This document shows positions 22,546 to 40,982 of a stretch of 64,000 nucleotides of DNA, one piece after another (position 1 is the first letter of the stretch; each line of letters opens with the position of its first letter). The DNA comes from Parcubacteria group bacterium Greene0714_7 (GTDB taxonomy: Bacteria > Patescibacteriota > Minisyncoccia > Phycocordibacterales > Phycocordibacteraceae), in assembly GCA_007378985.1 (NCBI GenBank), contig VMHB01000002.1, positions 27,320 through 91,319 of the forward strand. The letters run 5' to 3'. The notes under the pieces are model-generated. The model was not told the DNA's origin. It ran no database searches and saw only the letters and a program-made list of their open reading frames with translations. The position numbers were made by a program, and so were the translations under genes.

Positions 22546-22560
22546 GTCTGTGTTTAGACT

Positions 22561-22725
22561 CTATTTTCTTTTTGAAGTTTTAAGCCGTAAAGGGGTTCTG
22601 TCTGCCTTCATTCCTGGAAGAAACGGCTCCGCAGGGCCGCTATTTTCTAATCCAAGAGTTTTTGCGTGCGCACGCATATCTGCATCAGAAGCCCCAAAAG
22701 AAGTACCTGAATTTTCACGCCCCAT
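22561..22725 (-). CDS. Hypothetical 54-aa small ORF between rplE and rpsN
   Basis: MGRENSGTSFGASDADMRAHAKTLGLENSGPAEPFLPGMKADRTPLRLKTSKRK* is missed by the ORF track's length cutoff. It begins 11 nt after the rplE stop and ends at the terminator. No family recognised. Confidence 0.25.
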   Translation of the reverse strand: MGRENSGTSFGASDADMRAHAKTLGLENSGPAEPFLPGMKADRTPLRLKTSKRK

Positions 22726-22736
22726 AAAAATTGAAA

Positions 22737-23300: not shown

Positions 23301-23586
23301 TCTTAACCGCGACGCGAACTCGCTTATCTCCCTTCATTTTAATCGAAATGCGTGTGCCTTTACCTGATTTTGGATCAACAAGCATTGCATTTGATACATG
23401 AAATGGCATCGACATATCAACAATCTGACCCTTTTTATTACCACGAGGCTTCTGGTGTTTCTTTTTCATATTCAAACCCTCAACAATGATCTTGCTCACT
23501 GCTGGAAGCGCTCTCGTTACCGTACCCGCCTTACCTTTATCCTTACCGGTAATGATGATGACTTTATCTCCTTTTCTTATTTTCAT
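23284..23586 (-). CDS. rplX: 50S ribosomal protein L24
   Basis: MKIRKGDKVIIITGKDKGKAGTV. Confidence 0.95.
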   Translation of the reverse strand: MKIRKGDKVIIITGKDKGKAGTVTRALPAVSKIIVEGLNMKKKHQKPRGNKKGQIVDMSMPFHVSNAMLVDPKSGKGTRISIKMKGDKRVRVAVKSGSEV

Positions 23587-23619
23587 ATTGTTTTTGTTTT
23601 GTCTGCAAATCAGCCGATT

Positions 23620-24000
23620 CTACACAACCTCTGGCGCAAGAGAACCAATCTTCTGATATCCCATGTCGACGATTTCACGAGGGATTGGACCGAAGACACG
23701 ATTTGCCTTTGGTTCAAAAGGATCTTTTGCATTCTTTGAAAGAATAACTACAGCATTATCATCGAAGCGAATGTAGGAACCGTCAACACGACGGAATGTC
23801 TTTCGTTGACGAACTACTACCGCAGTCAACACATCTTTTTTCTTAACCATTTTTCGTGGTTCAGCAGACTGCACAGAAAGCACTACTCTGTCGCCAATCT
23901 GAGCAATGGTTTTTTTAGAGCCACCAAGCACTTTGAAAATGCGTCCAACCTTTCCGCCGGTGTTATCTGCAATTATGACGAGTGATCGATCTTGAATCAT
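23620..24000 (-). CDS. rplN: 50S ribosomal protein L14
   Basis: MIQDRSLVIIADNTGGK... Confidence 0.95.
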   Translation of the reverse strand: MIQDRSLVIIADNTGGKVGRIFKVLGGSKKTIAQIGDRVVLSVQSAEPRKMVKKKDVLTAVVVRQRKTFRRVDGSYIRFDDNAVVILSKNAKDPFEPKANRVFGPIPREIVDMGYQKIGSLAPEVV

Positions 24001-24236
24001 ATAACTATAAAATGCTTATTCTTCGACATTGGGCGACATGGCGCAATTGTGACGCGCTCTCCGTCTTTTTTTGTGTTCCCTGCATCATGCGCAAGATACT
24101 TCTTCGTCTTCTTCACATACTTTTTATACTTTGAATCCTTCACATAGCGATTTACAGCCACCGTTATGGTGTCTTTCATTTTTGTGGATACAACCACGCC
24201 AGTGAGTGTTTTTTGATTTTTTGTGTTTGTTTCCAT
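23997..24236 (-). CDS. rpsQ: 30S ribosomal protein S17
   Basis: KTLTGVVVSTKMKDTITVAVNRYVKDSKYKKYVK. Confidence 0.9.
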   Translation of the reverse strand: METNTKNQKTLTGVVVSTKMKDTITVAVNRYVKDSKYKKYVKKTKKYLAHDAGNTKKDGERVTIAPCRPMSKNKHFIVI

Positions 24237-24241
24237 ATAGA

Positions 24242-24436
24242 TTATGCCTCTCTTTCTGCCATGACTAACTTAATACGCGCGATATCGGCACGAACTGTGC
24301 GAGCCTTGCGGACATTCTTGGTGCGCGATCCCGACATACCAAAACGAAATTCACGAAGCTCAATTTCGAGCTCACCAAGAGCCTTCATAAGCTCACTATC
24401 AGTCTTCTTCCTAACATCTATAGCTTTCATATGCAA
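24242..24436 (-). CDS. rpmC: 50S ribosomal protein L29
   Basis: MKAIDVRKKTDSELMKALGELEIELREFRF. Confidence 0.9.
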   Translation of the reverse strand: MHMKAIDVRKKTDSELMKALGELEIELREFRFGMSGSRTKNVRKARTVRADIARIKLVMAEREA

Positions 24437-24438
24437 AT

Positions 24439-24858
24439 TTAGTGGCGAGCAATTACGGTCGTTTTAACTGACAATTTAGTTGCAGCTTTGCGAAGTGCTT
24501 CTCTCGCAATCGCATCAGTAACACCGTCGATTTCAAAGAGAATTCTGCCTGGCTTTACCTCAACAACAAAACGGTATGGGTCACCCTTACCCTTACCCAT
24601 CGGCAATTCCCCTCCCTTCTTCGTGTCAGGACGGTCAGGAAATACGCGAATCCAGACACGTCCAGTTTTTCCTAGAAGTCGTGCTCCTGCCCTGCGAGCA
24701 GCCTCAAGCTGATTTGATGAAATGCGATCAGAGGTAAGAGCCTTCAACCCATGAGAACCGAAAGCAAGCGTAACACCACGGGTTGCTACCTGCTTCTTTT
24801 TAGGATTAACGCGAGAGCGTTGCCACTTTCTATATTTAACTTTTTTTGGAAACAACAT
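24439..24858 (-). CDS. rplP: 50S ribosomal protein L16
   Basis: MLFPKKVKYRKWQRSR... Confidence 0.95.
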   Translation of the reverse strand: MLFPKKVKYRKWQRSRVNPKKKQVATRGVTLAFGSHGLKALTSDRISSNQLEAARRAGARLLGKTGRVWIRVFPDRPDTKKGGELPMGKGKGDPYRFVVEVKPGRILFEIDGVTDAIAREALRKAATKLSVKTTVIARH

Positions 24859-24864
24859 AAAAAT

Positions 24865-25545
24865 TTATACTTTTGGACGTGACGCATCATCAGCAAAAAT
24901 ATCGCCACGATAAATCCAAACCTTAACGCCGATTTTGCCCAAAGGAAGTTGTGCTGCTATTTGCGCATAATCAATGTCTGCGCGGAATGTCTGAAGAGGA
25001 ATGCGTCCGCGCTTCAATTCTTCAGTGCGTGACATAGAGCCTGAACCGAGCATGCCAGCAACAGCAATACGCACACCCTTCACATCTCTATTAGCCATCA
25101 CCTTATCAATAGTCTGTTTCAAAACACGGCGGAAAGGAAGGCGCTTCTCGAGACTCTCCACCACCATACCTGCAACAATTGCCGCGTTAGATTCAGGAGA
25201 TCGAACTTCAATAACATCAAGATGAAGCGCGGGCACGGATGAAAGCTTCATGCTCTTGAGCATTTGGTGCAAATCCTTTTTCAATTTTGTTGCACCTTCA
25301 CCTGAGCGACCAATAACCATACCTGGGCGTGCTGTATGAATTTGAACTCGCAAATCTTTTTGAGAACGCTCAATTTCAACATGCGACACATAGCTTCCAC
25401 GAAGACGCTTTGTCAAAAATTGACGAATCATTGCATCAGTTCGAATGAATTCACGATTCTTTTTTGCAGAACCAGCAAACCAACGACTCTGCCAATCCCT
25501 AAGGATGCCTAGACGGTGCGCGTATGGATGAACGATTTTTGTCAT
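24865..25545 (-). CDS. rpsC: 30S ribosomal protein S3
   Basis: MTKIVHPYAHRLGILRDWQSRWF; KH domain region present. Confidence 0.95.
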   Translation of the reverse strand: MTKIVHPYAHRLGILRDWQSRWFAGSAKKNREFIRTDAMIRQFLTKRLRGSYVSHVEIERSQKDLRVQIHTARPGMVIGRSGEGATKLKKDLHQMLKSMKLSSVPALHLDVIEVRSPESNAAIVAGMVVESLEKRLPFRRVLKQTIDKVMANRDVKGVRIAVAGMLGSGSMSRTEELKRGRIPLQTFRADIDYAQIAAQLPLGKIGVKVWIYRGDIFADDASRPKV

Positions 25546-25547
25546 AA

Positions 25548-25889
25548 TTATTTTTTCTTCTTTGGCTTTGCTTTCCCTAAAGTCACTGTTATATGGCTCA
25601 TTCTATGGCGAATTGGGGATGAACGACCAAACGCACGAGGCATCGAACGCATAGCAACTAAACCTTTATTGACCGTAATGTTTTGAACAACGAGAGTTCT
25701 TCCGTCTTCACCCTGCTTCTCCGCGTTTGCGACAGCAGAGGAAATGAGTTTAGCCATAGGAGCTGCGGCGCGCTTATCCAAGAACTTTAGTGCAAGGAGT
25801 GCTTCCTCAACACCCTTACCCTTCACAAGCTCAGTAACGAGTCTGGTTTTTCGTGGAGTCTGCTTGTAGTTGGAAAGTGTCGCCTTCAT
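25548..25889 (-). CDS. rplV: 50S ribosomal protein L22
   Basis: MKATLSNYKQTPRKTRLVTELVKGK. Confidence 0.9.
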   Translation of the reverse strand: MKATLSNYKQTPRKTRLVTELVKGKGVEEALLALKFLDKRAAAPMAKLISSAVANAEKQGEDGRTLVVQNITVNKGLVAMRSMPRAFGRSSPIRHRMSHITVTLGKAKPKKKK

Positions 25890-25912
25890 ATGCTGATTCT
25901 AGATATCAAAAA

Positions 25913-26296
25913 TTATTTCTTAGCTCCAGCCTTAGCCTTACCATCAGCAGGTGCCTTGGCTGCTTGAGCTGCTGCAATTTCAGACTCTTTCTTCTTCTGT
26001 TCAAGCTCTTTCTGCATCTTACCTCCGTGACGAGTAAATTTGGTTGTTGATGAAAATTCGCCAAGACGATGTCCTACCATTTCCTCTGTAACAAATACCT
26101 CAGGGAAATCCTTTCCGTTATGAACAAGGAAAACAAAACCAACCATTTCAGGGCTGATTTCAGATGCACGAGCCCACGTCTTAATAGGCGCTGTTGTGGC
26201 AGGCTTCTTGCCTTCAATCTTCTTTAGAAGCTTGTGGGCGACATACGGACCTTTCTTAAGTGAACGAGACATTGTTGTAGTTTTGACCCAAATCAA
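25913..26296 (-). CDS. rpsS: 30S ribosomal protein S19 (with Lys/Ala-rich C-terminal extension)
   Basis: [19 protein letters not shown]...GHRLGEF. Confidence 0.9.
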
Positions 26297-26367
26297 GTGC
26301 GCACTAAGAAAAATGCGCCCTTACGAGCTTTGGGCATACTATCCCAATCACCCACCCACTGTCAATC

Positions 26368-27169
26368 TCATTTGTGCAACCTCCGGAGGTTGCACAAATG
26401 AGACACTAAAGCCAAAATGAAAAAATTACAAAATAATACCTTGGAGCTCTTCGACTAAAAGTTTTTTGCTGGTTGTTTTAACAAAATCGGCGTAATTACT
26501 TTTTGCTGTTATAGCAAACTGCCCCGTGATGATCTCGGGCACAATGAGTCCTCCCCATCGGTTCGCATCAGTAAAATCTTGGAGTGACGACCAAGGATAC
26601 TCGGATTCCCTTCCTGACCATTCTCGTATGTCACTGGGGTTTCTATGAATATAGGCGGATGCATATAAAAGCTGGGAATCTGTTTTTACATGCACCGCTT
26701 TGTACGGACCCTGAAATACATGTCCTGAGGTTTCATACTTAGTATTATAATATTTTGTATATCCGTCAGCTACGCGTTGCATGTAGCGTGCCATTCCTCC
26801 TTCAATGGTTTCTTTGACCAACAAGTGAAAGTGGTTCGACATAAGACAAAAGCACACCACTTCCACAAAACGACCCTCAATGATGGCCTCGATATCTTCG
26901 TTAGGGACAGAAAAACCAATATCCGGAACAAAACTTTCTGTAATCCGATGTATGTTTTTAAATTGATGAGGGGATTGGAGGAATAACACATTAAAAAGGA
27001 ATCGACGCCAGTCCCCTTTTTCTTTAAAAATAGTCTGCCTGTGCGCACCGCGATTGAACACATGGTAGTACTCCCCCGGAGCGATTCCTTCTCGTGACTT
27101 TAGCAATACCTTAGCCATCAACTCAGGCTACCACACCTCTGTGCAACCTCCAGAGGTTGCACAGAGAGG
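26368..27169. mobile_element. IS200/IS605-family (RAYT-like) element: Y1 transposase flanked by matching subterminal hairpin palindromes
   Basis: Left palindrome tcatttgtgcaacctccggaggttgcacaaatga (26368..26401) and right palindrome cctctgtgcaacctccagaggttgcacagagagg (27136..27169) share the core TGTGCAACCTCC/GGAGGTTGCACA. They bracket a HUH/Y1 transposase gene. Confidence 0.75.
26426..27121 (-). CDS. HUH Y1 (IS200-like / REP-associated tyrosine) transposase
   Basis: YYHVFNRGAHRQTIF, HUH motif CLMSNHFHLLVK, and Tyr-containing YKAVHV...YIHRNPS. Longer (231 aa) than classic IS200 TnpA. Confidence 0.75.
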   Translation of the reverse strand: MMAKVLLKSREGIAPGEYYHVFNRGAHRQTIFKEKGDWRRFLFNVLFLQSPHQFKNIHRITESFVPDIGFSVPNEDIEAIIEGRFVEVVCFCLMSNHFHLLVKETIEGGMARYMQRVADGYTKYYNTKYETSGHVFQGPYKAVHVKTDSQLLYASAYIHRNPSDIREWSGRESEYPWSSLQDFTDANRWGGLIVPEIITGQFAITAKSNYADFVKTTSKKLLVEELQGIIL

Positions 27170-27197
27170 ATTTTAAAAACAAAAATCCTCCTTCGGA

Positions 27198-30100
27198 CTA
27201 AAATTCATCGAAGCGCGGAGTAACACCTATGGTCACTGACTTTGAACTCGGCACCCCACCGGTTAAACAATTCATTGTGTATGTACTTTGTTGATTTATG
27301 ATCACAGATTGTGCACCTGAAAAAGCGGTTGAAGAAAGTCCCGGACCTGATATTGAACATGAGTCAGGAGTGCCTACCACTCCCCATGACACCGTTGCAG
27401 GGTCACCTTGGCGAACAGTAACGGCTGGGCTAATGTTGAGAGTAATATCGGCAGGGTTTACAGTCACTGTGGCGCTTGAAGATGCACTTCGTGTACCACT
27501 AGTACAAGTGATACCGTAGGTTGTAGTAACTGGAGGGGAAACAGTAACCGAGCCCACAGTTGCACTACCTGTTGGGAAATTAGTTCCCGTACAGGAAGTG
27601 GCGTACGAAGATGTCCAGTCAATTCTAGGAGAAGTCACACCTTTAATGATCGTATTTGGTGTGGCAGTAATCAGCACTGTTGGCGTGTTCTGTATGGTGC
27701 CAGCCCCACAGGTTGCAGTAACCGCACCTGTACCTGATGTCACAATAACTGAAGCCGATTTCGTACCGGCGGTACCGTATGTTTTTGAAACAGTTGCACC
27801 GGTGCCGGTCAGCCCGTCAGTGCCACTCCACACATAGGTATACGAGCCTACACCACCAGAAGGTGTAACGGTCCATATTAATGAGTCTCCAACATACCCC
27901 GTGCTTGGTGACGGAGAGCACGAGGCTGTGAGCGTGCCTGGGTTCACGGTGAGCGGTGTCCATGCACTGCAGTTATCAAGTTCGTTGGATTCATTCACTT
28001 CATTGAGCGGAGTGTCGGCACAAAAACGCATCTGGTACGCACCCGGCGAAAGAAATGTATAGCTTCCTGTTTCTGTACCACTTCCACCGGCTGAAATCGA
28101 TATTCGACTCAAAGCAATTTTTATTGATGTATTAGCTTCAGCAAAGTGAATAAAGAGACTGAAGATGCGGCCCCAGATAGAATCTAATTGAGTGAGATAA
28201 TTATTAAGACAGGCGCTGTCCGAAGCGAGGCACACATACATTCTTGAACCAAATACTGGAGTCGCTACTCCACCAGTATTATTAACACCAGCAGTAAATG
28301 TGCTGTTTACTCCTGCCGTCACACTAAGCGGTGTCAGGCTACCGGTGGTTAGATCAGACAAAGAAACACCAACCACCACAGAATTGGAGCAACTCGCTGT
28401 TATTGATGCCGGTGCCGATGCCGTTGCAAGACCTCCAAAATAATTATGTCTCGTTGTGTTACCGCTAGTGGAGGTTTTCGAGGCAAGAGAAGCATTTGAA
28501 TATGCTTCGTAGTGATAGTAGGTATTAACTGGCTGTCCAACCGAATTCAAAGTCTCTCGTACATCAACACTACAGCAACCGCCCGCAGGTGTTATTTCCG
28601 AACACACTCCTGCCATGGCAGAGTTAGCGCCACCCGTAAAGCCCACACCATCCTCTGTGCTGCCATAACTACCTACTTTTGTACCTCCAGAGCAGTGCTT
28701 TTCTCCTTGGAGCGTAACAGAAGTTACACCGGACGGACTAGTAACAGTAACTGAAGCTGTTTTTGTGCCAACTGTTGTATATATTTTTGAGATCGACGCA
28801 ACAGTACCAGAGAGACTATCAGTACCACTCCATGAATACGTGTACGAACCAGCTCCCCCTGATGCAGATGCAGTCCAAGTCACAGGACTACCGGTATATA
28901 CGCTCGTTGGAGATACTGAACATGACCCCGAAAGAACGCCGGAGGAGGTTGAATTTACTTGAACATTTGCGGTAGCAAAAGCGGTCTGGGGAGTCACGGC
29001 AGGGGAAGCGCCGACACATGAATAGATATCAGTATTGATGTTGCATGCACTGATGGTGTTCACCTTACATGTTGGGATGCTACAAGCCTTTCCTGTTGGA
29101 TTCGGAGGGCAAGTAGGTACGCTTGAATATGCCTTGTTTGGATCTGTGAGTGGGCAAGCAAAATCGCTTATATCAGACTCTGAGTATTGCCATATACCTG
29201 ACGATACTGCGCTAGCTCCTGTACAAGTAATAGAATAGTTTGTGGTGGCACTTAACGCCCCGGTAGAAATAGAGCCTGATGTATTCCCGCCAGTTTCAAA
29301 TCCACTACCAACACAAGAAACTGCATTAGTTGAGGACCATGTGAGAGTAGCTGAAGATCCAGAATTCAAACTTGTTGGAGTTGCAGATAACGAAACAGTC
29401 GGTGTGGGGATTGAGCTTACCGTGACTGTTTGAGATGCCGACGCAGACCCACCAGCGCCAGTACATGACACAAGATAGCTGGTTGTTTGTGATGGAGTAA
29501 CTGATACAGAGCCTGCGTTTGCTGACGCTGTAGAAAAATTAATGCCTGTGCATGATGTTGCATTCGTTGAACCCCATGTGAGCGTTGACGATGAACCTAC
29601 TACAAGTGAAGTTGGGTTTGCAGAAAGTGTTGCAGTTGGTGCAATAATTGGAGCGCTGACGGTCACCGTTGCTGAAGAAGAAACTGTTTGAATACCATCA
29701 GTGCAGGTAATCGAGTATGTTATTGAGGAAGCAGGTGAAACAATAAGCGAACCTGCAGTAGCGCCTCCAGTTGAAAAATTAGTACCCGTACATGAGGTCA
29801 CATAGTCCGAAGTCCATGTTAGAAGAGATGAACCACCACTGCTTATAGAAGACGGTGTTGCAATAATTCCTACATATAGAGTTGTAGGTTCCTCGATACA
29901 ACCATTCCCTTCATCAATGCGCGCGACTTGATACGAACTTTGCACCACATAACTATCTCCTCCATACACCGCACGAAACGCCGCTTCACCTGCACTACCA
30001 GGAGGGAAAGGGTTAGTCACTATTGTGTAGTCATACTCCCATGTCGTACCACTACACCCCCCAACCTCGCCACCTCCTCCTCCATCAAGGTTCGGGCCAG

Positions 30101-30212
30101 CATGTGTTAACTGAGGAACGGCACTAAACAGAACAATTGAAAAAAAAGCACCCATAAAAAAGATTTTAAAAGCGGGGAAAGCAAACCGGCGGAAGGCTAT
30201 CATTGAACCCAT
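27198..30212 (-). CDS. Giant secreted Cys/Ser/Thr-rich multi-repeat surface protein (paralog A), Ig-like two-Cys repeats + PKD-like modules, C-terminal ...TPRFDEF
   Basis: Signal peptide. About four 85-aa repeats of the form TLTWxSTNATSCTGxxFSTGG...VSVxPxxTTxYxxxCTGxGG...TVTV. Two YTY(S/V)WSGTD(S/G)L(S/T)G PKD-like motifs and Cys-rich linkers. Paralogous to the adjacent gene. Confidence 0.8.
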   Translation of the reverse strand: MGSMIAFRRFAFPAFKIFFMGAFFSIVLFSAVPQLTHAGPNLDGGGGGEVGGCSGTTWEYDYTIVTNPFPPGSAGEAAFRAVYGGDSYVVQSSYQVARIDEGNGCIEEPTTLYVGIIATPSSISSGGSSLLTWTSDYVTSCTGTNFSTGGATAGSLIVSPASSITYSITCTDGIQTVSSSATVTVSAPIIAPTATLSANPTSLVVGSSSTLTWGSTNATSCTGINFSTASANAGSVSVTPSQTTSYLVSCTGAGGSASASQTVTVSSIPTPTVSLSATPTSLNSGSSATLTWSSTNAVSCVGSGFETGGNTSGSISTGALSATTNYSITCTGASAVSSGIWQYSESDISDFACPLTDPNKAYSSVPTCPPNPTGKACSIPTCKVNTISACNINTDIYSCVGASPAVTPQTAFATANVQVNSTSSGVLSGSCSVSPTSVYTGSPVTWTASASGGAGSYTYSWSGTDSLSGTVASISKIYTTVGTKTASVTVTSPSGVTSVTLQGEKHCSGGTKVGSYGSTEDGVGFTGGANSAMAGVCSEITPAGGCCSVDVRETLNSVGQPVNTYYHYEAYSNASLASKTSTSGNTTRHNYFGGLATASAPASITASCSNSVVVGVSLSDLTTGSLTPLSVTAGVNSTFTAGVNNTGGVATPVFGSRMYVCLASDSACLNNYLTQLDSIWGRIFSLFIHFAEANTSIKIALSRISISAGGSGTETGSYTFLSPGAYQMRFCADTPLNEVNESNELDNCSAWTPLTVNPGTLTASCSPSPSTGYVGDSLIWTVTPSGGVGSYTYVWSGTDGLTGTGATVSKTYGTAGTKSASVIVTSGTGAVTATCGAGTIQNTPTVLITATPNTIIKGVTSPRIDWTSSYATSCTGTNFPTGSATVGSVTVSPPVTTTYGITCTSGTRSASSSATVTVNPADITLNISPAVTVRQGDPATVSWGVVGTPDSCSISGPGLSSTAFSGAQSVIINQQSTYTMNCLTGGVPSSKSVTIGVTPRFDEF

Positions 30213-30254
30213 TGTACAGGGAATTTACACCGATTGTTAAAAGAAGTGTGGGAA

Positions 30255-33020
30255 CTAAAACTCTTCGTACGCTGGAAGCAGTTTAACTGTTATTGATTTT
30301 GAGGTGACTCCTCCGCCTGTGGTGCATGAGAGCGTATAGGTGCTTTCTTGACCAATGACCACAGACTGTGAACCTGAAAAAGCGCTTGATGAAAGTCCCG
30401 GACCACTTATGAGGCACGTATCAGGACTTCCTGATACTGACCAACTAATGGTTACTGAATCATTACGACGAACTGATGTGTTTGGGGATGCAGTAAGCAC
30501 TAGATCGGCCACATAGACCGTAACAACCGCGCTCGAATAAACACTCTTTGATCCATTCGTACAAGTAAGATCGTATGTAGTGGTGTTAGTTGGTGTTACT
30601 GATACAGCACCAGATGTTTGACCTCCTGTTGCAAAGCTAGTGCTCGTACACGATGTTGCGTTTGTCGAAGACCATGTAAGTTGCGACGCGTTTTGCCCGC
30701 GAATAATTGAGCTCGGGGTCGCGCTTAAAAGTGCCGTAGGAGAAGCTGAAATTGAGGTTGAATTGCTACACGCCTGAGTGACAGACTGTGTACCTGAAGT
30801 AATACTTACAGAGCCTACTTTGGTTCCCACTGTTGTGTATTGCCGTACAACCGACTGCGTTGTTCCTGACAGACCGTCTGTACCACTCCACGAATACACA
30901 TATGAACCAGTGCCCCCCGCAGGAGACGCCGTCCACGTTATGTTGTCGTTGGTGTATCCAGAAGTAGGTGTGACTGCACAAGAAGTGCTAAGTGGTGAAC
31001 TTGAAACAATCACCGCAGTCCACGCACCACAATTATTTGTTTCATTGGACTCGTTGATAACACCGGAACCCGCAGATGAATTTTTGTCGGCGCACGCTCG
31101 CAGGTACCACGTGCCTGCAGAAGGGAACGCGTACGAAAGCGTAGTTACATCAGATCCGTTCGCTGAAATGTTTGGTGACGTGTCGGTACCAATATCTACC
31201 GTGTTCGCACCGCTTGAAGATGTGGCTCGCTGAAAAAGATTAGTGAACCCGCTACCTGTCGCAGGGTTACCGACGTTCGTGATTGTTGCAGAAAATGTTT
31301 TTGTGACATTAGTAACTGCGGATGTCGGTGAAATAGCGCCCGCAGTAAGATCTGACAAAACGACACTCACTGCAACTGAATTTGAACAACTTGCCGTTGT
31401 TGACATGGCGTTTGTTTTGAAACCTGCGGAATAATAGTAATTGTTCGTGTTACCTCCTGAAACAGTAGAATACGAATCCTTGGTTACAAGAGATGCGCCG
31501 GAGTAGGATGTCCATTGATAATACGTGTTGACCGGTTGTCCGCCCGAACTCAACACTTCTTTTGCGGACACACTGCAACACCCTCCAGCTGGAGTGATAC
31601 TGTCACACATTGCACTGTCACCGCTTGAATTATATACAGCACCATCTTCGGTAGTACTTTGACTTGCAACCAACGTGCCACCGGAACATTGCCTGTTGCC
31701 TTGGAGATTGGTTGTGCTCGTGTTGGTCACAGTAACCGAACCAGTTTTCGTACCAGTTATTGAGTATGTTTTTGAAATTAACGCACTAATTCCCGACAAT
31801 CCGTCCGTACCACTCCACGAATACGAGTAGACAGGTACACCGCCAGACGCAGATGCATTCCAAGTAACCGTCTCTCCCGTATACACGCTTGTGGGAGACG
31901 CCGTACACGATGCCTCAAGAGGAGCATTTGAAACGGTAACGTATGCGCTGCCTGATACACTTGGCGGAGGCGACGTTACTTGGCACGAATAGAGCTCTGT
32001 AGTAATACCACATCCAGGACCTATCGTATTTACCTTGCAAGTTGAAGGTGGCGATGTACATGATTTACCTTGAGGACTTGCTGGGCAATCTGGTACAGCG
32101 CTATACACATTGTTGTTGGACGATACAGGACACGATAGATCCGAGTAATCACTTTGATAGTATTGCCATGTGCCCGTACCACCACCCGAAGAACCGGTGC
32201 ATGTAACCGTGTAGTTTGTACTAGCGTTTGGTGTGATGGTTACCGAGCCCGATGTGGTACCGGCGGTGTCAAATTGAGTGCTCGAACAATATGAAGCGTT
32301 GCTTGAAGTCCACGAAAGGGTTGTGCTTCCGCCGACAGCAACGGTAGAGGGTGACGCGGTCAACGATATACTTGGCGACGAACTTGGGGGCGTTACCGTA
32401 AGAGTTGCCGAAGCAGTTGCCGTACCTCCCGCACCAGTACAACTTACTGAATAGTTGCTGGTTTGCGGTGGTGAGACGGACACTGTACCAGAGAGTGCCC
32501 CGCCCGTACTGAACCCCGTTCCCGTACATGATGTTGCATTTGTGGAACTCCACGTGAGTGCAGATGAGTACCCTGCCGTTATAGAAGTCGGTGACACAGA
32601 AAGTGTGGCAACCGGTGTAGGAGAAACATTTGTGTAAGTGAGGGTGTATTTTTTGCTCGCACTCGAAATACCTGTGCCACTGTACAGTCCATAAGAAACT
32701 CCCCACGCAGACGGAGTGGATACCAGCGATGCCTGAATACAGTAGGTATTCGGAGTATTGTAATTACTTGGCAAGAAAGAGCCAGTAATAAATCCCCATG
32801 CGAGCACCGACCACGACGGCGCTGGTCCATCGCTACTATCTCCGCCAAGTTCTGAAATAAATGCCCCTGTACATTGTCTATTTGCAGTGGTGACTGCACC
32901 ACTGCTCGTTGGTGGATTGGGATACGAGTATGCATGTGCCAATCCCGACACCCCAAAAACACCTACAACAAAACTTGCAAAAATTACAGTTTTTATTAGT
33001 GAGGTAACCGATGGGCACAT
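30255..33020 (-). CDS. Giant secreted Cys/Ser/Thr-rich multi-repeat surface protein (paralog B), C-terminal ...LPAYEEF
   Basis: Same domain order as paralog A. The start is placed at the internal Met giving the signal peptide MCPSVTSLIKTVIFASFVVGVFGVSGLAHA; the ORF track extends to 33080. Confidence 0.75.
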   Translation of the reverse strand: MCPSVTSLIKTVIFASFVVGVFGVSGLAHAYSYPNPPTSSGAVTTANRQCTGAFISELGGDSSDGPAPSWSVLAWGFITGSFLPSNYNTPNTYCIQASLVSTPSAWGVSYGLYSGTGISSASKKYTLTYTNVSPTPVATLSVSPTSITAGYSSALTWSSTNATSCTGTGFSTGGALSGTVSVSPPQTSNYSVSCTGAGGTATASATLTVTPPSSSPSISLTASPSTVAVGGSTTLSWTSSNASYCSSTQFDTAGTTSGSVTITPNASTNYTVTCTGSSGGGTGTWQYYQSDYSDLSCPVSSNNNVYSAVPDCPASPQGKSCTSPPSTCKVNTIGPGCGITTELYSCQVTSPPPSVSGSAYVTVSNAPLEASCTASPTSVYTGETVTWNASASGGVPVYSYSWSGTDGLSGISALISKTYSITGTKTGSVTVTNTSTTNLQGNRQCSGGTLVASQSTTEDGAVYNSSGDSAMCDSITPAGGCCSVSAKEVLSSGGQPVNTYYQWTSYSGASLVTKDSYSTVSGGNTNNYYYSAGFKTNAMSTTASCSNSVAVSVVLSDLTAGAISPTSAVTNVTKTFSATITNVGNPATGSGFTNLFQRATSSSGANTVDIGTDTSPNISANGSDVTTLSYAFPSAGTWYLRACADKNSSAGSGVINESNETNNCGAWTAVIVSSSPLSTSCAVTPTSGYTNDNITWTASPAGGTGSYVYSWSGTDGLSGTTQSVVRQYTTVGTKVGSVSITSGTQSVTQACSNSTSISASPTALLSATPSSIIRGQNASQLTWSSTNATSCTSTSFATGGQTSGAVSVTPTNTTTYDLTCTNGSKSVYSSAVVTVYVADLVLTASPNTSVRRNDSVTISWSVSGSPDTCLISGPGLSSSAFSGSQSVVIGQESTYTLSCTTGGGVTSKSITVKLLPAYEEF

Positions 33021-33027
33021 AGAAATT

Positions 33028-33687
33028 TTATTGTGGGGTAACGACATACGGCGCTGATGACACAAATGTAATGGCGCCATCTATCGAATACAAATTAAAA
33101 TTATTTGGACGACCAGTGTGGATTGCAAACATAGTTGGTGACACAAACCCGATACCACTAACATACGTAGGGAGGGCAGGAATTTTCAACGAACCAAAGT
33201 ATGATACGCTCGCGCCACCCTCATACACCTTGAACACATCAAATTGGTTGGTGATCTGATTAAACAATACCGCAGCACTTCCATCAGGAGCAACCGCACC
33301 AATATCAGGAGTAATACCTTCTTGTGCAATGAGGACAAGCTCATTTTTTGCTGTTGGATTGCGCCAAACTAGCCCTTTCTCGGTAACTACAAGAATCATA
33401 CCGCTCGGAAGTGTGACTTTATTTGAGACTGAGAGACTTTGTTGTGGTGCCGTGGCAGTACGCACTTCATTCGCAGGATTCAAGACATACCATTGATACG
33501 TATCAGTTTCATAGATTGAAAATACTTGATCTGCCATTCGCTCGTCCACCTCTTTTGATACCCATTCAGAAAAAAATGTACGCAAAATAGGAACTGCATA
33601 CAGAAGACCGCAGAGTGCACCTAAAATGAGTGCAATAGAAAGTGTGATACGCATTGGTCGAGAGAGTCTCTGTAATATCTGACTCAT
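33028..33687 (-). CDS. Hypothetical membrane-anchored (N-terminal TM) extracytoplasmic protein co-located with the giant protein pair
   Basis: 219 aa with TM helix ITLSIALILGALCGLLYAV then a soluble domain. No family recognised. Confidence 0.55.
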   Translation of the reverse strand: MSQILQRLSRPMRITLSIALILGALCGLLYAVPILRTFFSEWVSKEVDERMADQVFSIYETDTYQWYVLNPANEVRTATAPQQSLSVSNKVTLPSGMILVVTEKGLVWRNPTAKNELVLIAQEGITPDIGAVAPDGSAAVLFNQITNQFDVFKVYEGGASVSYFGSLKIPALPTYVSGIGFVSPTMFAIHTGRPNNFNLYSIDGAITFVSSAPYVVTPQ

Positions 33688-33762
33688 ACTCTAAATAGTC
33701 TACAATGAAAAATAGCACTCCTTACAAAAAACACCCCGCATGATGCGGGGTGTTGATGGATA

Positions 33763-34626
33763 TTACGCGCCTTTCGTTCTTTTTTTCCCGACACGACGAC
33801 GAGAAACAATGAAGGGATTCGAGTATTTCTTTGGAGTTCGTGTTTTCTGTCCCTTTCCTGATGGCTTGCCCCACATGGTGCGTTGTCTTCGGTGACCACG
33901 GCCTTGGCGACCTTCACCTCCTCCGTGTGGATGGTCAACAGGGTTCATGGCAGTACCACGAACCGTTGGGCGAATACCCATGTGACGAGCACGACCTGCT
34001 TTACCAATGATGACAAGGTGATGCGCATCGTTTGAAACTTCACCAATAGATGCCCATGCAGTATCAACTACTTTACGTACTTCAGTTGAAGGGAGTTTAA
34101 TTTGAGCGTAGCCAGCATCGAGCGCAATGAGTTCAGCGTGGTTACCTGCGCTTCGTGCCATTTTTGCACCGCCGTTTGCATGTACTTCGATATTGTAAAT
34201 GAATGTGCCGATTGGAATGTTCTTCAAAGGAAGTCGGTTACCGGGAGTGATGGGAGCAGTTTCTGAAGTAATGACCTTATCGCCAACTTTCAAAGACTTA
34301 GGCGCGAGAATGTACCTTCGCTCACCGTCAATGTCCACGATACGAGCAATGAATCCTGTGCGAGTAGGATCGTACTCAATGTGCTCAACTTTGCCTGGAA
34401 TATTCTTCTTAGCAAACATAAAATCAACTACGCGCATCTGCTGTTTGTGTCCACCTCCTTGGTGACGGGTCGTGATGCGACCAAGCGAGTTTCTACCTGC
34501 GTGGCTTTTCTTTCCTTTTGTCAAAGACTTCAACGGCTTCCCTGTCGTCAAGACATCACGATAACGAATCACGCTCATGTGGCGAGTAGATGCGGTTCGT
34601 GCTTTGTAATTTCGTGTAGTAGACAT
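33763..34626 (-). CDS. rplB: 50S ribosomal protein L2
   Basis: HKQQMRVVDF...GGEGRQGRGHRRQRTMWGKPSGKG... Confidence 0.95.
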   Translation of the reverse strand: MSTTRNYKARTASTRHMSVIRYRDVLTTGKPLKSLTKGKKSHAGRNSLGRITTRHQGGGHKQQMRVVDFMFAKKNIPGKVEHIEYDPTRTGFIARIVDIDGERRYILAPKSLKVGDKVITSETAPITPGNRLPLKNIPIGTFIYNIEVHANGGAKMARSAGNHAELIALDAGYAQIKLPSTEVRKVVDTAWASIGEVSNDAHHLVIIGKAGRARHMGIRPTVRGTAMNPVDHPHGGGEGRQGRGHRRQRTMWGKPSGKGQKTRTPKKYSNPFIVSRRRVGKKRTKGA

Positions 34627-34643
34627 AATTGTGTATTAAAAAT

Positions 34644-35042
34644 TTATGAGAAACGGATAGTGTCTCCTTTCTTTAAAAACACGAGTGCCTTTCGTGATGC
34701 AGATGTCTTCCCAAAACCTCTCTTCTTTCTCATCTGCACTCGCTTTGCTGGAGTATTTACTACATTCACCTTGATTGGCATAACTTTATAGAGCGCATTC
34801 ACTGCCATAGCAACATCCTTCTTTGTTGCCTCTTTTCGAATATCAAATGTGTACACACCATTCGCGGTCATGTTTGCAGCTTTCTCCGTAATGCGAGGAC
34901 GTACCAAAATATTGGCATACTCAGCAAGCGCTGAAGGGCGATCAGTTTTTTTAGTAGCAGAAACTTTTGTTTCAACTTTTTTGACTTCTGCCTTTGGAGC
35001 ATCAGTCTTCTTTGTATTCGTTTTTGATTTAAAAATTGCCAT
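34644..35042 (-). CDS. rplW: 50S ribosomal protein L23 (Lys-rich N-terminal extension)
   Basis: ILVRPRITEKA...VYTFDIRKEATKKDV core. Confidence 0.85.
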   Translation of the reverse strand: MAIFKSKTNTKKTDAPKAEVKKVETKVSATKKTDRPSALAEYANILVRPRITEKAANMTANGVYTFDIRKEATKKDVAMAVNALYKVMPIKVNVVNTPAKRVQMRKKRGFGKTSASRKALVFLKKGDTIRFS

Positions 35043-35048
35043 AAAAAT

Positions 35049-35600
35049 TTATTTCTCTAGTCGTTCTGTAAGTGTTTTAACAGACACCTTCGGATCTACA
35101 ACGAGAATATAACGGTACGTGAGCAAGTCAACTGGGTTCGCATTTCTTGCCTCATCAACCATCACATTCTTCATGTTAACATCATGCTTTGAAAGAAGAA
35201 TGAGCGCCGCATTGTTTCTGCGTGTAGCGAGTTCAGCAAATCCTGCAATCTTAGCAAGACCTCCGAGTGTTGCCTTTGCGTCTTTTGTCTTTGGTGCCTT
35301 GAAAGAAAGCGAGTCAACAAAAATCATTTTTCCTTTACGGAGTTTTTCTGAAAGAACTGTTGCAACTGCTTTTGCACGCATCTTCTTATTGATCTTCTGT
35401 GAAAAATCGCGCTCTTTTACAGGTCCGTGAGTTGTACCTCCTCCTCTCCAGATTGGAGATCGAATGGATCCGTGACGAGCTCGGCCAGTACCCTTTTGCT
35501 TCCATGGCTTCTTACCGCCACCGCGTACTTCACCACGACCCTTCGTGTGAGCAACTGGTGTACGAGCGTTTGCCTGCATCGCAAGAACAACTTGGTGCAC
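35049..35600 (-). CDS. rplD: 50S ribosomal protein L4
   Basis: RGGGKKPWKQKGTGRARHGSIRSPIWRGGG. Confidence 0.95.
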   Translation of the reverse strand: MHQVVLAMQANARTPVAHTKGRGEVRGGGKKPWKQKGTGRARHGSIRSPIWRGGGTTHGPVKERDFSQKINKKMRAKAVATVLSEKLRKGKMIFVDSLSFKAPKTKDAKATLGGLAKIAGFAELATRRNNAALILLSKHDVNMKNVMVDEARNANPVDLLTYRYILVVDPKVSVKTLTERLEK

Positions 35601-35653
35601 TAACGCATCATTTCTCTTTGCATCAAAAATGCCTTCTGGGAGTTCAATCTCCC

Positions 35654-36244
35654 CTACTTCTTTTGCGTGCGTCCTGGAACTGCTCCACGAACAAAAATTT
35701 CATTCTTTGCGCCATCAACACGAATCACCTCAAGGTTTGGAACGGTGACGCGGTCAGAACCCATTCGGCCTGCCATGCGCATACCCTTCACAACGCGACC
35801 TCCTGCTCGGCCTGGACCTCCGCCTGAAGAACCACGCTCTCTTTCAGAATGTTTCTGACCGTGTGTACGAGGGCCTCCTTTGAAACCGTATCGCTTAACG
35901 ACACCTTGGAAGCCTTTTCCTTTTGAAATTCCTGAAACAACAACACTTTCACCTTCTCTGAAAGCAGTGACATCAAAAGTTGCACCTACTTCAAGCGCCT
36001 CAGCTCCATCGAAACGAAACTCACGAAGTCCACGAACATCTCCTTTAGGTTGCTGTGGTTTTGCAATGCGTGATTGTTTCTGTTCACCGTAGCCTACCTG
36101 TACTGCCTTGTAGCCGTCAGTCTCTGTATTCTTTACTTGGGTCACTGTAACCTTAGGCGCATGTATAACGGTAACAGGCACAGCATGACCTGCTGCATTG
36201 AAGACCTGTGTCATTCCTTGTTTTGTTCCTATGATGAATTTCAT
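35654..36244 (-). CDS. rplC: 50S ribosomal protein L3
   Basis: MKFIIGTKQGMTQVFNAAGHAVPVTVI... Confidence 0.95.
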   Translation of the reverse strand: MKFIIGTKQGMTQVFNAAGHAVPVTVIHAPKVTVTQVKNTETDGYKAVQVGYGEQKQSRIAKPQQPKGDVRGLREFRFDGAEALEVGATFDVTAFREGESVVVSGISKGKGFQGVVKRYGFKGGPRTHGQKHSERERGSSGGGPGRAGGRVVKGMRMAGRMGSDRVTVPNLEVIRVDGAKNEIFVRGAVPGRTQKK

Positions 36245-36284
36245 TAGTTTTTTGTTGCGAGTCCTCGAGTCTAGAAAAATCTAA

Positions 36285-36466
36285 CCCTGTTAAATCCCCG
36301 GGACGGGGACGCTTTGTATTCAAAGCGTATTTAACAGGGTTCTGAGAATCTAATCGCTATGCTCAAGATTCTCTAGAAAAAAACGCGCACTAGTATTTCG
36401 CAGTGCGCGATATACCATTGGTCCGGAAGGAGCCTATTGGGCTTCCGTACGTAGCGTTTCGGCTAC
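36285..36466. ncRNA. Highly structured non-coding region between rpsJ and rplC (candidate ncRNA / r-protein leader); five or more consecutive hairpins
   Basis: An 11-bp stem (ccctgttaaat/atttaacaggg) encloses two inner hairpins. Further hairpins follow: gagaatct...agattctc, gcgcact...agtgcgc, ccggaag...cttccgg, gtagc-gtttcg-gctac. No ORF. The strand cannot be resolved. Confidence 0.35.
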
Positions 36467-36511
36467 TATACACAAAGCCGTAGAAAGATGCAAGAGAAAC
36501 AAAAAACCGCC

Positions 36512-36540
36512 CTATTGGGCGGTTTTTTGTTTCTCAAGGA
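36512..36540. terminator. Bidirectional rho-independent terminator immediately after rpsJ (aaaaaaccgccc-tatt-gggcggtttttt)
   Basis: Perfect GC-rich stem flanked by A6 and T6 runs. Confidence 0.7.
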
Positions 36541-36541
36541 A

Positions 36542-36937
36542 TTAAATCATCCTGACGTCCACCGATACCCCGGAAGGGAGTGAAAGGTTCGTCAACGCAT
36601 CAATGATTTTGGGCGTTGGATTTACGATGTCCAAAATTCGCTTATGGGTGCGGATTTCGAACTGCTCACGAGCATCTTTGTAGACGAACGATGAGGCGTT
36701 GACCGTAAACTTCTTGATGTCAGTTGGAAGCGGGATAGGGCCAACAACCTCCGCATCAAAGCGGAGCGCAGTGTCGATTATCTGCTTCACCGAAGCATCC
36801 AAAACTTTGTGGTCATATGCACGAACACGAAGACGTAATTTACCTAGACCCGCAACTGGAGCCGAAGCTTTCGCTGTTTTTGCTCCTGCTTTTGGTGCCT
36901 TGCGGACAGGCGTCTTTTTTTCTTTAGTGTCGGACAT
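36542..36937 (-). CDS. rpsJ: 30S ribosomal protein S10 (Lys/Ala-rich N-terminal extension)
   Basis: [23 protein letters not shown]...THKRILDIV core. Confidence 0.9.
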
Positions 36938-36966
36938 AAATTTTCAAAGTTCGTGAATACTAGGCT

Positions 36967-38163
<1,197 letters not shown>

Positions 38164-38828: not shown

Positions 38829-40982
<2,154 letters not shown>

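What the first reader, a model, noticed from the sequence alone, without database searches (positions are those of the whole stretch)
26297..33762. A 7.4-kb island splits the near-universally linked rpsS-rplB pair inside the S10 r-protein operon
Ribosomal protein genes run contiguously on the minus strand from rplB up to 34626 and from rpsS down to 25913. The 7.4 kb between them holds an IS200/RAYT-like transposase with both hairpin ends, two about 1000-aa paralogous secreted repeat proteins, and a membrane-anchored 219-aa protein, all on the operon strand. The rplB-rpsS adjacency is among the most conserved gene linkages in bacteria, so placing giant surface proteins here, presumably co-transcribed with a highly expressed operon, is very unusual. 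It suggests IS-mediated acquisition or a lineage-specific surface module.
Basis: partly seen in the sequence, partly recalled or inferred. Interest (0 to 1): 0.85.

Follow-up and report, generated by a model that had tools for sequence, protein, structure and literature searches.

The report
Surface-gene slot between rplB and rpsS
In one group of ultra-small groundwater bacteria, the normally adjacent ribosomal genes rplB and rpsS appear to end one operon and start the next, and the old, fast-changing gap between them holds a transposase-like gene with its own pair of DNA hairpins plus, in this genome, genes for giant cell-surface proteins.

Summary
About 7.5 kb lies between rplB and rpsS. It holds p219, two roughly 1000-aa paralogues (48% identical), and a Y1 (tyrosine HUH nuclease) transposase-like gene flanked by two copies of a perfect palindrome.

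- **Not a recent IS insertion.** In Paceibacteria relatives, rplB is followed by an intrinsic terminator in at least 19 of 26 loci. In 23 of 23 loci rpsS has its own TTGACN-N16-18-TANNNT promoter. The gap therefore probably lies between two transcription units, not inside one.
- **The Y1 gene is an old resident.** All 13 loci examined for this subfamily carry it in this gap, in either orientation. Its fold is closest to TnpA_REP (the solved RAYT, a REP-associated tyrosine transposase). dN/dS is 0.06-0.15. Each allele has its own matching palindrome, and the rpsS-side copy sits at or near the -35 box.
- **The surface module is clade-specific.** All five p219 homologues whose context was read follow rplB. 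Elsewhere p219 is fused to the N-terminus of a giant protein. Gene content differs between genomes about 95% identical in DNA.
- **Not an assembly artefact.** Independent assemblies confirm the architecture.

Function and transcription are inferred only. I rate it a new variant of known kinds, of moderate to high interest.

The parts
33763..34626 (-). rplB (287 aa). It appears to be the last gene of the upstream transcription unit.
   Evidence: TIGR01171 351.7 bits; Pfam L2_N and L2_C.
33723..33754 (-). Intrinsic-terminator-like hairpin (11-bp stem, 7 GC pairs, 3-nt loop) followed by a T-run, starting 9 nt after the rplB stop codon.
   Evidence: Top-ranked terminator-like site in 21000-39000. 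An equivalent hairpin with a T-run, carrying compensatory stem changes, follows rplB in most Paceibacteria relatives.
33028..33687 (-). p219: a membrane-anchored protein with a transmembrane helix at residues 10-42 and an all-beta domain resembling about four blades of a beta-propeller.
   Evidence: AF2 model pLDDT 78.4. Foldseek hits are to 7- and 8-bladed propellers, TolB and an archaeal S-layer YVTN propeller. Five close homologues exist; the four looked up directly, plus a fifth (P0004) inferred from its 4,270-bp contig shared with giant P0139, sit after rplB. The domain is fused to giant proteins in P0258, P0264 and P0276.
30255..33020 (-). p941, giant protein type A (921 aa from the ATG at 33020; the ORF extends to 33080). 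Secreted Ig-like-repeat protein ending in PAYEEF.
   Evidence: CARDB 2.8e-8, PKD_4 weak. Annotated as 921 aa, Greene07147_346. The signal peptide ...GLAHA|YSYP is read from the sequence. Clade A in the giant-protein tree.
30211..30240 (-). Promoter-like site TTAACA-18-TACAAT upstream of p1004.
   Evidence: 10 of 12 positions match. The sequence is conserved in L002 directly after the rplB terminator. Function not shown.
27198..30212 (-). p1004, giant protein type B. Secreted PKD/CARDB-repeat protein ending in PRFDEF.
   Evidence: PKD_4 7.6e-10, CARDB 2e-7. 48% identical to p941. Orthologues 76-91% identical in L002, L082, L176, L177 and L181. dN/dS 0.13.
27137..27166 (.). Palindrome copy 1 (CTCTGTGCAACCTC-TG-GAGGTTGCACAGAG), between the p1004 stop and the Y1 gene start.
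26426..27121 (-). RAYT-like Y1 HUH 'transposase' (231 aa; 230 aa from the ATG at 27118).
   Evidence: PF01797 at 33.3 bits. The HUH motif and the Tyr of SAYIHRNP are invariant in 37 sequences. AF2 pLDDT 83.7; best PDB fold match is 4er8, TnpA_REP. dN/dS 0.06-0.15. Single copy in the window.
26366..26403 (.). Palindrome copy 2 (a 38-nt perfect palindrome). Its end touches the -35 box of the rpsS promoter.
26336..26365 (-). rpsS-operon promoter-like site, TTGACA-N18-TAGTAT.
   Evidence: 10 of 12 positions match. TTGACN-N16-18-TANNNT lies within 200 nt upstream of rpsS in 23 of 23 Paceibacteria loci that have a gap.
26299..26335 (-). rpsS 5' leader with a short GC-rich hairpin followed by a U-run.
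   Evidence: Hairpins with compensatory changes occur in 13 divergent loci. Function unknown.
25913..26272 (-). rpsS (119 aa from the ATG at 26272). It appears to be the first gene of the downstream transcription unit.
   Evidence: TIGR01050 111.5 bits. The identical protein occurs on 23 contigs.

Best explanation
The 7.5 kb is not an insertion into a working operon. It fills an old gap between what appear to be two transcription units.

**The operon boundary.** In this Paceibacteria lineage the classical S10 operon appears to be cut at rplB|rpsS. The sequence features are shown: a terminator hairpin after rplB, and a promoter plus a structured leader before rpsS. That these features work as such is inferred.

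**First occupant: the Y1 gene.** It is a single-copy, RAYT-like Y1 HUH gene flanked by two copies of a perfect palindrome that matches its allele.
- Shown: it is present in the gap, in either orientation, across relatives whose ribosomal proteins are 64-100% identical. It is under purifying selection. The rpsS-side palindrome touches the -35 box in all nine same-strand loci and lies up to about 30 nt from it in the opposite-strand loci.
- Inferred: it is a domesticated transposase relative that binds these hairpins.

**Second occupant: the surface module.** It is a clade-specific cell-surface system.
- p219 is a membrane anchor plus a fragment of a beta-propeller.
- p941 follows p219 with 7 nt between them. 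Together they are the split form of a protein that is a single chain in other relatives (shown).
- p1004 is an old paralogue of p941.
- Inferred: all are envelope proteins, acting as an adhesin or S-layer-like coat. p219 may hold the conserved PxFEEF tail.

**Variation.** Gene content changes by deletion or gain of the 3.55-kb p219-p941 block, by duplication, and by allele swapping. Inferred: this happens mainly by homologous recombination in the highly conserved flanking ribosomal genes. It resembles the way variable surface-antigen loci sit between conserved genes.
For: **Operon boundary**
- The terminator at 33754-33730 ranks first in 18 kb. The TTGACA promoter at 26365-26336 is among the best-scoring sites.
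- Terminators with compensatory stem changes follow rplB in L002, L004, L006, L012-L014, L082, L085-L088, L090, L091, L173, L175-L177 and L181.
- A promoter motif precedes rpsS in 23 of 23 loci. Leader hairpins are also conserved.
- Other phyla have gaps of -4 to 141 bp.

**Y1 gene**
- All 13 loci with a homologue at least 53% identical carry it in the gap. It is on the operon strand in the window, L002, L082, L088, L090, L172, L176, L177 and L181. It is on the opposite strand, with no surface genes, in L091 and L173-L175.
- Matching palindromes were found on both sides in 10 of those 13 loci, and they co-vary with the allele. L091 and L173 show one copy, on the rpsS side only. L174 is partly masked by Ns.
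- Y1 identity tracks ribosomal-protein identity in most pairs.
- dN/dS is 0.06-0.15.
- The best solved-structure match is TnpA_REP, 4er8.
- No extra palindrome copy occurs in 241 kb of sequence held.

**Surface module**
- p219 homologues occur only after rplB.
- P0258 residues 49-218 match p219 (E 1e-14). Its residues 234-482 match the N-terminus of mature p941 (E 2e-36). It ends in PKFEEF.
- The giant proteins fall into two clades with a shared C-terminal motif.
- They carry PKD and CARDB domains.

**Variation**
- L177 is about 95% identical in DNA but lacks exactly window 33777-30227.
- L176 and L181 have RpsS 99-100% identical (the 119-aa protein identical) but a Y1 gene only 67% identical.
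Against: - There are no transcript data. Read-through of the rplB terminator, or transcription of the island from rplB, cannot be excluded.
- My strict terminator scan found a hairpin in only 13 of 23 loci. Adding hairpins recognised by inspection and RNAfold gives at least 19 of 26. L003, L008, L010 and L174 show none that is convincing.
- Whole-genome copy number of the palindrome was not measured.
- Y1 alleles only 57-67% identical occur in backgrounds with at least 95% identical RplB. That fits strict vertical descent poorly and could mean active, site-specific re-insertion.
- The surface function rests on domain content, signal peptides read by eye, and a model with pLDDT 78 built from six sequences.
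- p219 binding the PxFEEF tail is untested.
Confidence: 0.65

Rival explanations
1. A recent IS200/RAYT-type element transposed into the S10 operon and brought the surface genes with it.
For: A Y1_Tnp gene with a hairpin on each side lies at one edge of the island. G+C is slightly higher in the island, 0.45-0.51 against 0.41-0.47 in the flanks.
Against: - The Y1 gene occupies the same gap in lineages whose ribosomal proteins are only 64-86% identical and which have no surface genes.
- The surface module occurs without the Y1 gene in L085-L087.
- The palindromes flank only the Y1 gene, not the cargo.
- All island genes are under purifying selection.
- The G+C difference is explained by the Thr/Ser/Gly-rich repeats.
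Confidence: 0.05
2. The Y1 gene with its two palindromes is an active, site-specific IS200/IS605-like element. It repeatedly inserts at, and excises cleanly from, a target next to the rpsS -35 box. Its presence across the clade would then reflect targeting, not inheritance.
For: - Y1 alleles only 57-67% identical, each with its own palindromes, sit at the same position in genomes with at least 95% identical RplB.
- L085-L087 lack the element cleanly, with no palindrome remnant.
- Both orientations occur.
- Y1 transposases insert next to short specific sequences without target duplication and excise precisely (established knowledge of IS608 and ISDra2; fold matches).
- In all nine same-strand loci the element ends at TTGAC.
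Against: - One copy per locus, and no second copy of the gene or palindrome in 241 kb.
- Y1 identity follows ribosomal-protein identity for most pairs.
- dN/dS of 0.06-0.15 over long divergence is typical of a housekeeping gene, as reported for RAYTs (PMC5581495).
- Relatives 28-52% identical sit at various other housekeeping loci, also in single, palindrome-flanked form.
Confidence: 0.2
3. The island genes are co-transcribed with the ribosomal genes, so that the surface proteins are made in step with ribosomes.
For: All genes are on the operon strand with short spacers of 7-129 nt. Most cargo-bearing relatives keep the same strand.
Against: - A strong terminator directly follows rplB.
- Promoter-like sites precede p1004 and rpsS. 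These features are conserved.
- The Y1 gene lies on the opposite strand in four lineages.
Confidence: 0.1
4. The region is a chimeric or collapsed assembly of a metagenome-assembled genome.
For: Two paralogous repeat-rich genes are hard to assemble. L001 breaks inside p941, and L178-L180 break about 100 nt upstream of rpsS.
Against: The left junction is reproduced at 100% identity in an independent Logan assembly. The same order appears in three independent assemblies of a relative. Variant architectures are each seen in several assemblies.
Confidence: 0.02

Closest known systems
RAYT / TnpA_REP with flanking REP palindromes (E. coli TnpA_REP, PDB 4er8; Bertels et al. 2017, PMC5581495)
   Same: - Y1 HUH fold, with 4er8 as the best solved match.
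- Single copy.
- Flanked by palindromes that match the allele.
- Purifying selection and mostly vertical descent, as described for RAYTs.
   Different: - The NCBIfam REP_Tyr_transpos model scores 29 bits against a cut-off of 80.
- It is 231 aa, with a conserved C-terminal extension (EYPWSSLQD..NRWGG..SNYADF).
- Only the two flanking palindromes are seen in the sequence held. No dispersed REP population was found.
- Its position is fixed between rplB and rpsS, with one palindrome at or near a promoter -35 box.
IS200/IS605-family insertion sequences (IS608, ISDra2, IS200)
   Same: Y1 HUH catalytic core. Hairpins near both ends. The unit is about 0.8 kb. Relatives that lack it show a clean absence.
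   Different: No multiple copies. No tnpB. The protein is about 80 aa longer. The palindromes are perfect and identical at both ends, not distinct imperfect left and right ends. The element is retained at one locus across a broad clade.
Variable surface-antigen loci held between conserved housekeeping genes (for example pneumococcal cps between dexB and aliA, or the O-antigen cluster between galF and gnd). From my own knowledge.
   Same: A fast-changing set of envelope genes at a fixed position with highly conserved flanks. Presence/absence and allele replacement occur between near-identical backgrounds.
   Different: The cargo is giant proteins, not polysaccharide synthesis genes. The flanks are ribosomal protein genes. 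Recombination is inferred, not shown.
[quoted passage not shown]
   Same: Disruption starts with a few genes inserted at an operon boundary.
   Different: Here the boundary lies inside the canonical S10 operon and appears to be a new boundary carved out in this clade. This position was not mentioned in the passages I read.
Archaeal S-layer protein with YVTN beta-propeller and PKD domains (PDB 1l0q)
   Same: A beta-propeller module combined with PKD-type Ig-like domains in an envelope protein.
   Different: Only distant fold resemblance (TM about 0.36). Here the propeller is a fragment of about four blades, membrane-anchored, and either fused to or split from the Ig-repeat part.

Membership tests
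Y1 HUH transposase superfamily (Pfam PF01797) | Pfam score above the gathering threshold | tested here: met
   33.3 bits against a cut-off of 23.
Y1 HUH transposase superfamily (Pfam PF01797) | HUH metal-binding motif and catalytic tyrosine | tested here: met
   N96-H97-x-H99 and Y157 (SAYIHRNP) are invariant in 37 sequences.
Y1 HUH transposase superfamily (Pfam PF01797) | Fold | tested here: met
   Model pLDDT 83.7. The top 30 PDB matches are all Y1 transposases.
RAYT / TnpA_REP | Gene flanked by REP-type palindromes | tested here: met
   The same palindrome lies on both sides in 10 of 13 loci and co-varies with the allele. L091 and L173 show one side only; L174 is partly masked.
RAYT / TnpA_REP | Flanking palindrome dispersed at elevated copy number in the genome (a REP/REPIN population) | tested here: inconclusive
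   No copy beyond the flanking pair in the 64-kb window or in 241 kb from 11 loci. No whole genome was available. RAYT groups 1 and 4 also have few copies.
RAYT / TnpA_REP | About one copy per genome, with mostly vertical inheritance | tested here: inconclusive
   One copy per locus. Identity tracks ribosomal proteins for most pairs, but L090, L176 and L181 are exceptions.
RAYT / TnpA_REP | NCBIfam NF047646 equivalog score | tested here: not met
   29 bits against a cut-off of 80. It is therefore not a member of the curated proteobacterial-type family, although 4er8 is the closest fold.
IS200/IS605 insertion sequence | Multiple or recently duplicated copies showing mobility | tested here: not met
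   Single copy in the window and in every locus. Whole genomes were not tested.
IS200/IS605 insertion sequence | Subterminal hairpins at both ends | tested here: met
Canonical S10 operon (rpsJ to rpsQ as one transcription unit) | rplB and rpsS adjacent with no internal terminator or promoter | tested here: not met
   The gap is 7.5 kb, with terminator-like and promoter-like sites that are conserved in the clade. Transcription itself was not measured.
Secreted Ig-like-repeat envelope proteins (PKD / CARDB) | PKD and CARDB domains above threshold, plus an N-terminal signal peptide | tested here: met
   p1004: PKD_4 39.1 bits (cut-off 27) and CARDB 31.6 (cut-off 22.7). p941: CARDB 34.3. The signal peptides were read from the sequence only; no predictor was run.
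Beta-propeller (TolB / PD40 / YVTN-like) for p219 | Propeller-blade fold | tested here: inconclusive
   51 PDB matches with E <= 1e-3, all propellers, but TM is only 0.3-0.45 and the model rests on six sequences. p219 has no Pfam hit. The PD40 hit in L090 p320 is weak.

The most novel reading that the evidence does not exclude
The RAYT-like gene and its two matching palindromes may have been kept at the rplB|rpsS boundary throughout the radiation of a Paceibacteria clade because they do a job for the host there. For example, the palindrome at the -35 box could act as an operator or insulator for the rpsS-operon promoter. The HUH enzyme could maintain, invert or exchange the element, and could load neighbouring cargo such as the surface-protein genes. 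That would be a hairpin-based gene-exchange platform anchored in the ribosomal gene cluster.
Probability: 0.15. Interest if true: 0.85.

Novelty: new variant of a known kind. Interest (0 to 1): 0.62.

Why it matters
- **Gene linkage.** One of the most conserved gene linkages in bacteria is broken across a whole lineage of the Candidate Phyla Radiation. The break carries conserved terminator-like and promoter-like signals, not a random insertion. This bears on how ribosomal operons can be re-cut.
- **RAYT function.** What RAYT-type domesticated transposases do for the cell is still unknown. This subfamily has only two matching hairpins in the sequence held, a fixed address, and one hairpin against the promoter of an essential operon. 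That is a simpler setting for the question than genomes with hundreds of REPs.
- **Host contact.** The gap holds fast-changing giant envelope proteins in organisms thought to live attached to other cells. These proteins are candidates for host contact or for the cell coat, and the locus is easy to find by its conserved flanks.

Tried and rejected
- **Rfam**, 21000-39000 at E <= 1: only chance matches at terminator-like hairpins.
- **RNAalifold** on a MAFFT alignment of rpsS leaders gave no consensus because the alignment was out of register. Single-sequence folds were used instead.
- **PADLOC**: no hit for any island protein.
- **PHROGs**: 'virion structural protein' hits cover only the Ig-like repeats. 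I rejected them as evidence of phage origin.
- **p219 profile against L090 p320** by hhalign: probability 4.5%, inconclusive.
- **PDB sequence search with p1004**: nothing.
- **PDB sequence search with the Y1 profile**: only weak hits, E 0.01-0.05, so a fold search was needed.
- **Metagenome scan with the Y1 alignment**: None is next to rplB or rpsS. This helped as a contrast but did not enlarge the subfamily sample.
- **The 'missing' giant genes in L082 and L172**: I considered these pseudogenes. Intact ORFs of 849 and 978 codons are present, so the gene caller had missed them.
- **Foreign origin by G+C**: rejected. The shift is small and follows amino-acid composition.
- **Literature**: seven searches found no description of this split or of a Y1 gene at this site.

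Full report
**1. What is in the window.**
The minus strand reads tuf, rpsJ, rplC, rplD, rplW and rplB (33763-34626), followed by four non-ribosomal genes. After them come rpsS (25913-26296; probable true start 26272), rplV, rpsC and the rest of the cluster. The four genes are:
- p219 (33028-33687), with no family hit.
- p941 (30255-33080; 921 aa from the ATG at 33020, as annotated in the source genome), matching CARDB and weakly PKD.
- p1004 (27198-30212), matching PKD_4 and CARDB.
- A 231-aa protein (26426-27121) matching Pfam Y1_Tnp above threshold. It matches the NCBIfam RAYT model only weakly, at 29 bits against a cut-off of 80.

p941 and p1004 are colinear paralogues, 48% identical. The Y1 gene is flanked by two copies of TGTGCAACCTCnGGAGGTTGCACA, at 27140-27163 and 26373-26396. 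These are the only copies in 64 kb, and none is expected by chance.

**2. The split is real and unusual.**
I fetched 80 loci encoding RplB relatives and measured the distance to rpsS. In Firmicutes, Actinobacteria, Proteobacteria, Cyanobacteria and others the gap is -4 to 141 bp. The same holds for five Patescibacteria outside this clade.

Independent assemblies rule out an artefact:
- A Logan contig from another run reproduces rplB-p219-start of p941 exactly.
- Three assemblies of a relative about 90% identical in DNA (L082-L084) show the same five-gene order, once the two giant ORFs that the gene caller missed are recognised.

The window comes from Parcubacteria group bacterium Greene0714_7.

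**3. The gap probably lies between two transcription units.**
- Nine bases after the rplB stop lies the best terminator-like site in 18 kb: an 11-bp stem with 7 GC pairs and a T-run.
- Directly upstream of rpsS lies TTGACA-N18-TAGTAT, one of the two best promoter-like sites (10 of 12 positions).
- L002 has a different stem sequence in the terminator hairpin, with changes on both arms.
- Across Paceibacteria-type relatives with a gap, a hairpin plus T-run follows rplB in at least 19 of 26 loci. My strict scan found 13 of 23, and inspection with RNAfold added more. L003, L008, L010 and L174 show none that is convincing.
- TTGACN-N16-18-TANNNT precedes rpsS in 23 of 23 loci.
- The rpsS leader carries a short GC hairpin followed by a U-run, with compensatory changes in 13 divergent loci.

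The sequence features are shown. That they terminate and start transcription is inferred. In the more distant relatives L004-L014, the 0.5-1.1-kb gap holds small ORFs unrelated to one another. The junction is therefore permissive across the class.

**4. The Y1 gene is an old resident, not the vehicle.**
Its family is large, with 2085 hits, and very conserved. The HUH motif, the tyrosine of SAYIHRNP and a C-terminal extension are invariant or nearly so in 37 sequences.

I read the context of every homologue I could reach that is at least 53% identical. All 13 loci carry it between rplB and rpsS:
- On the operon strand in the window, L002, L082, L088, L090, L172, L176, L177 and L181.
- On the opposite strand, with no surface genes, in L091, L173, L174 (Kaiserbacteria) and L175 (a complete UBA2163 genome).

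Ribosomal-protein identity across these loci runs from 64% to 100%, and Y1 identity follows it for most pairs.

Relatives only 28-52% identical lie elsewhere, next to gatB, fpg, a prepilin peptidase and other genes. Of these, 20 of 57 are also flanked by one palindrome on both sides.

Other properties:
- The AF2 model (pLDDT 83.7) matches TnpA_REP bound to a REP hairpin (4er8) best, ahead of the IS608 and ISDra2 transposases.
- dN/dS is 0.06-0.15.
- No second palindrome copy exists in 241 kb of held sequence.
- Bertels et al. describe RAYTs as single-copy, mostly vertically inherited and flanked by REPs, with some groups having few REP copies.

The gene fits that description in behaviour but fails the curated RAYT model. 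I call it RAYT-like.

**5. Palindromes match their allele and sit at the promoter.**

| Loci | Palindrome core |
|---|---|
| Window, L002, L082, L088, L177 | ..CAACCTCC\|GGAGGTTG.. |
| L172 | ..CAACACCC\|GGGTGTTG.. |
| L176, L181 | ..GCTAAACCC\|GGGTTTAGC.. |
| L090 | ..CAAGGCCC\|GGGCCTTG.. |
| L175 | TGGTCAACACCC\|GGGTGTTGACCA |
| L091 | CGTCAAGAACCC\|GGGTTCTTGACG (one copy found) |

Matching copies were found on both sides of the gene in 10 of the 13 loci. L091 and L173 show one copy, on the rpsS side only, and L174 is partly masked by Ns. In all nine same-strand loci the rpsS-side copy touches the -35 box. In the opposite-strand loci it lies up to about 30 nt upstream of it.

L176 and L181 have RplB 98% and RpsS 99-100% identical to the window, but a Y1 gene only 67% identical, with its own palindromes. 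L090 has a Y1 gene 57% identical against RplB at 95%. So alleles have been replaced at a fixed site. The held data cannot separate site-specific re-insertion from recombination in the conserved flanks.

**6. The surface module.**
- p219 has five close homologues among 5.8 billion proteins. The four I looked up directly sit right after rplB and before a giant protein. The fifth (P0004) is inferred to do so from its 4,270-bp contig, which it shares with giant P0139.
- A profile search of every cluster representative finds 43 relatives. Eleven are 927-1364 aa long with the p219 domain at the N-terminus.
- In P0258, residues 49-218 match p219, and residues 234-482 match the first residues of mature p941 (AYSYPxPPT...). 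The chain ends in PKFEEF. So p219 and p941, which lie 7 nt apart, are the split form of one protein.
- The p219 model shows a transmembrane helix and an all-beta domain resembling about four propeller blades.
- All the giant proteins end in [TV]P-x-[FY]-[EDQ]-E-[FI]. They form two clades: type A follows p219, and type B precedes the Y1 gene.
- Domain content and signal peptides point to envelope proteins. An adhesin or coat role, and docking of the tail on the propeller, are inferences.

**7. Variation.**

| Architecture (rplB ... rpsS) | Loci |
|---|---|
| p219, giant A, giant B, Y1 | window, L082-L084 |
| giant B or other giant, Y1 | L002, L088, L172, L176, L177, L181 |
| p219, giant A | L085-L087 |
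| p471, p320, p873, Y1 | L090 |
| Y1 alone, opposite strand | L091, L173-L175 |
| small unrelated ORFs | L004-L014 |

L177 is about 95% identical in DNA to the window and lacks exactly 33777-30227. Three contigs with RpsS identical to the window's break about 100 nt upstream of rpsS. This hints at strain-level heterogeneity.

**8. Verdict.**
'Lineage-specific surface module' is supported. 'IS-mediated acquisition' and 'co-transcription' are not.

The locus combines three things:
- an apparent operon boundary, specific to this clade, inside the classical S10 operon;
- a RAYT-like gene fixed at one site with two matching hairpins;
- a variable giant-protein module.

Each has known relatives, but the combination and the fixed address are new to the literature I could search. 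The main limits are the absence of transcript data, the absence of whole-genome palindrome counts, a non-random sample of 13 loci, and surface function that is inferred only.

Noticed in passing
window 36494-36535 (spacer 36245-36541 between rpsJ and rplC): A palindrome with a 19-bp stem and A/T runs on both sides, resembling a bidirectional terminator, lies in a 300-bp spacer inside the S10 cluster. Relatives carry small ORFs at this junction: L090 116 aa, L172 69 aa, and L177 146 aa on the opposite strand. The cluster may therefore be cut here as well.
   Followed up: partly
window 22250-22736 (between rplE and rpsN): A spacer of about 490 bp holds a terminator-like site (22540-22519) and a promoter-like site (22532-22504). 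In L088 the same junction holds shikimate kinase, threonine synthase and two small ORFs. In L173 it holds three ORFs. This looks like another permissive junction in the spc cluster.
   Followed up: partly
window 26299-26335 and the equivalent region in L004-L014, L085, L090, L091, L172-L174: The rpsS 5' leader has a short GC-rich hairpin followed by a U-run about 8-30 nt after the -10 box. Stem sequences differ but stay paired across divergent genomes. It could be an attenuator or a ribosomal-protein-binding leader. It has no Rfam match.
   Followed up: partly
window 11194-11251: A 58-nt perfect palindrome (AGAATTACCACACCCTCACATATACGATATATCGTATATGTGAGGGTGTGGTAATTCT), unrelated to the Y1-flanking palindrome.
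   Followed up: no
C-termini of p941 (about 30258-30275) and p1004 (about 27201-27218); also L002, L082, L085, L086, L088, L090, L172, P0258 and P0264: Every giant protein ends in a conserved free C-terminal motif, [TV]P-x-[FY]-[EDQ]-E-[FI]. I know of no bacterial sorting signal of this form. It may be a docking peptide.
   Followed up: partly
L178, L179, L180 (Logan contigs with RpsS identical to the window's): All three contigs end 80-124 nt upstream of rpsS, at the boundary with the palindrome and Y1 gene. This suggests the assembly graph branches there because strains differ in gap content.
   Followed up: no
L090 7592-9997: In this relative the gap holds two other proteins (471 aa and 320 aa) ahead of the giant protein. 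The 320-aa protein has a weak PD40 beta-propeller hit and may stand in for p219. The profile comparison was inconclusive.
   Followed up: partly
window 25913-26000 (C-terminus of RpsS): RpsS carries an Ala/Lys-rich C-terminal extension. This matches the Parcubacteria-specific uS19 extension described in PMC9297842.
   Followed up: yes
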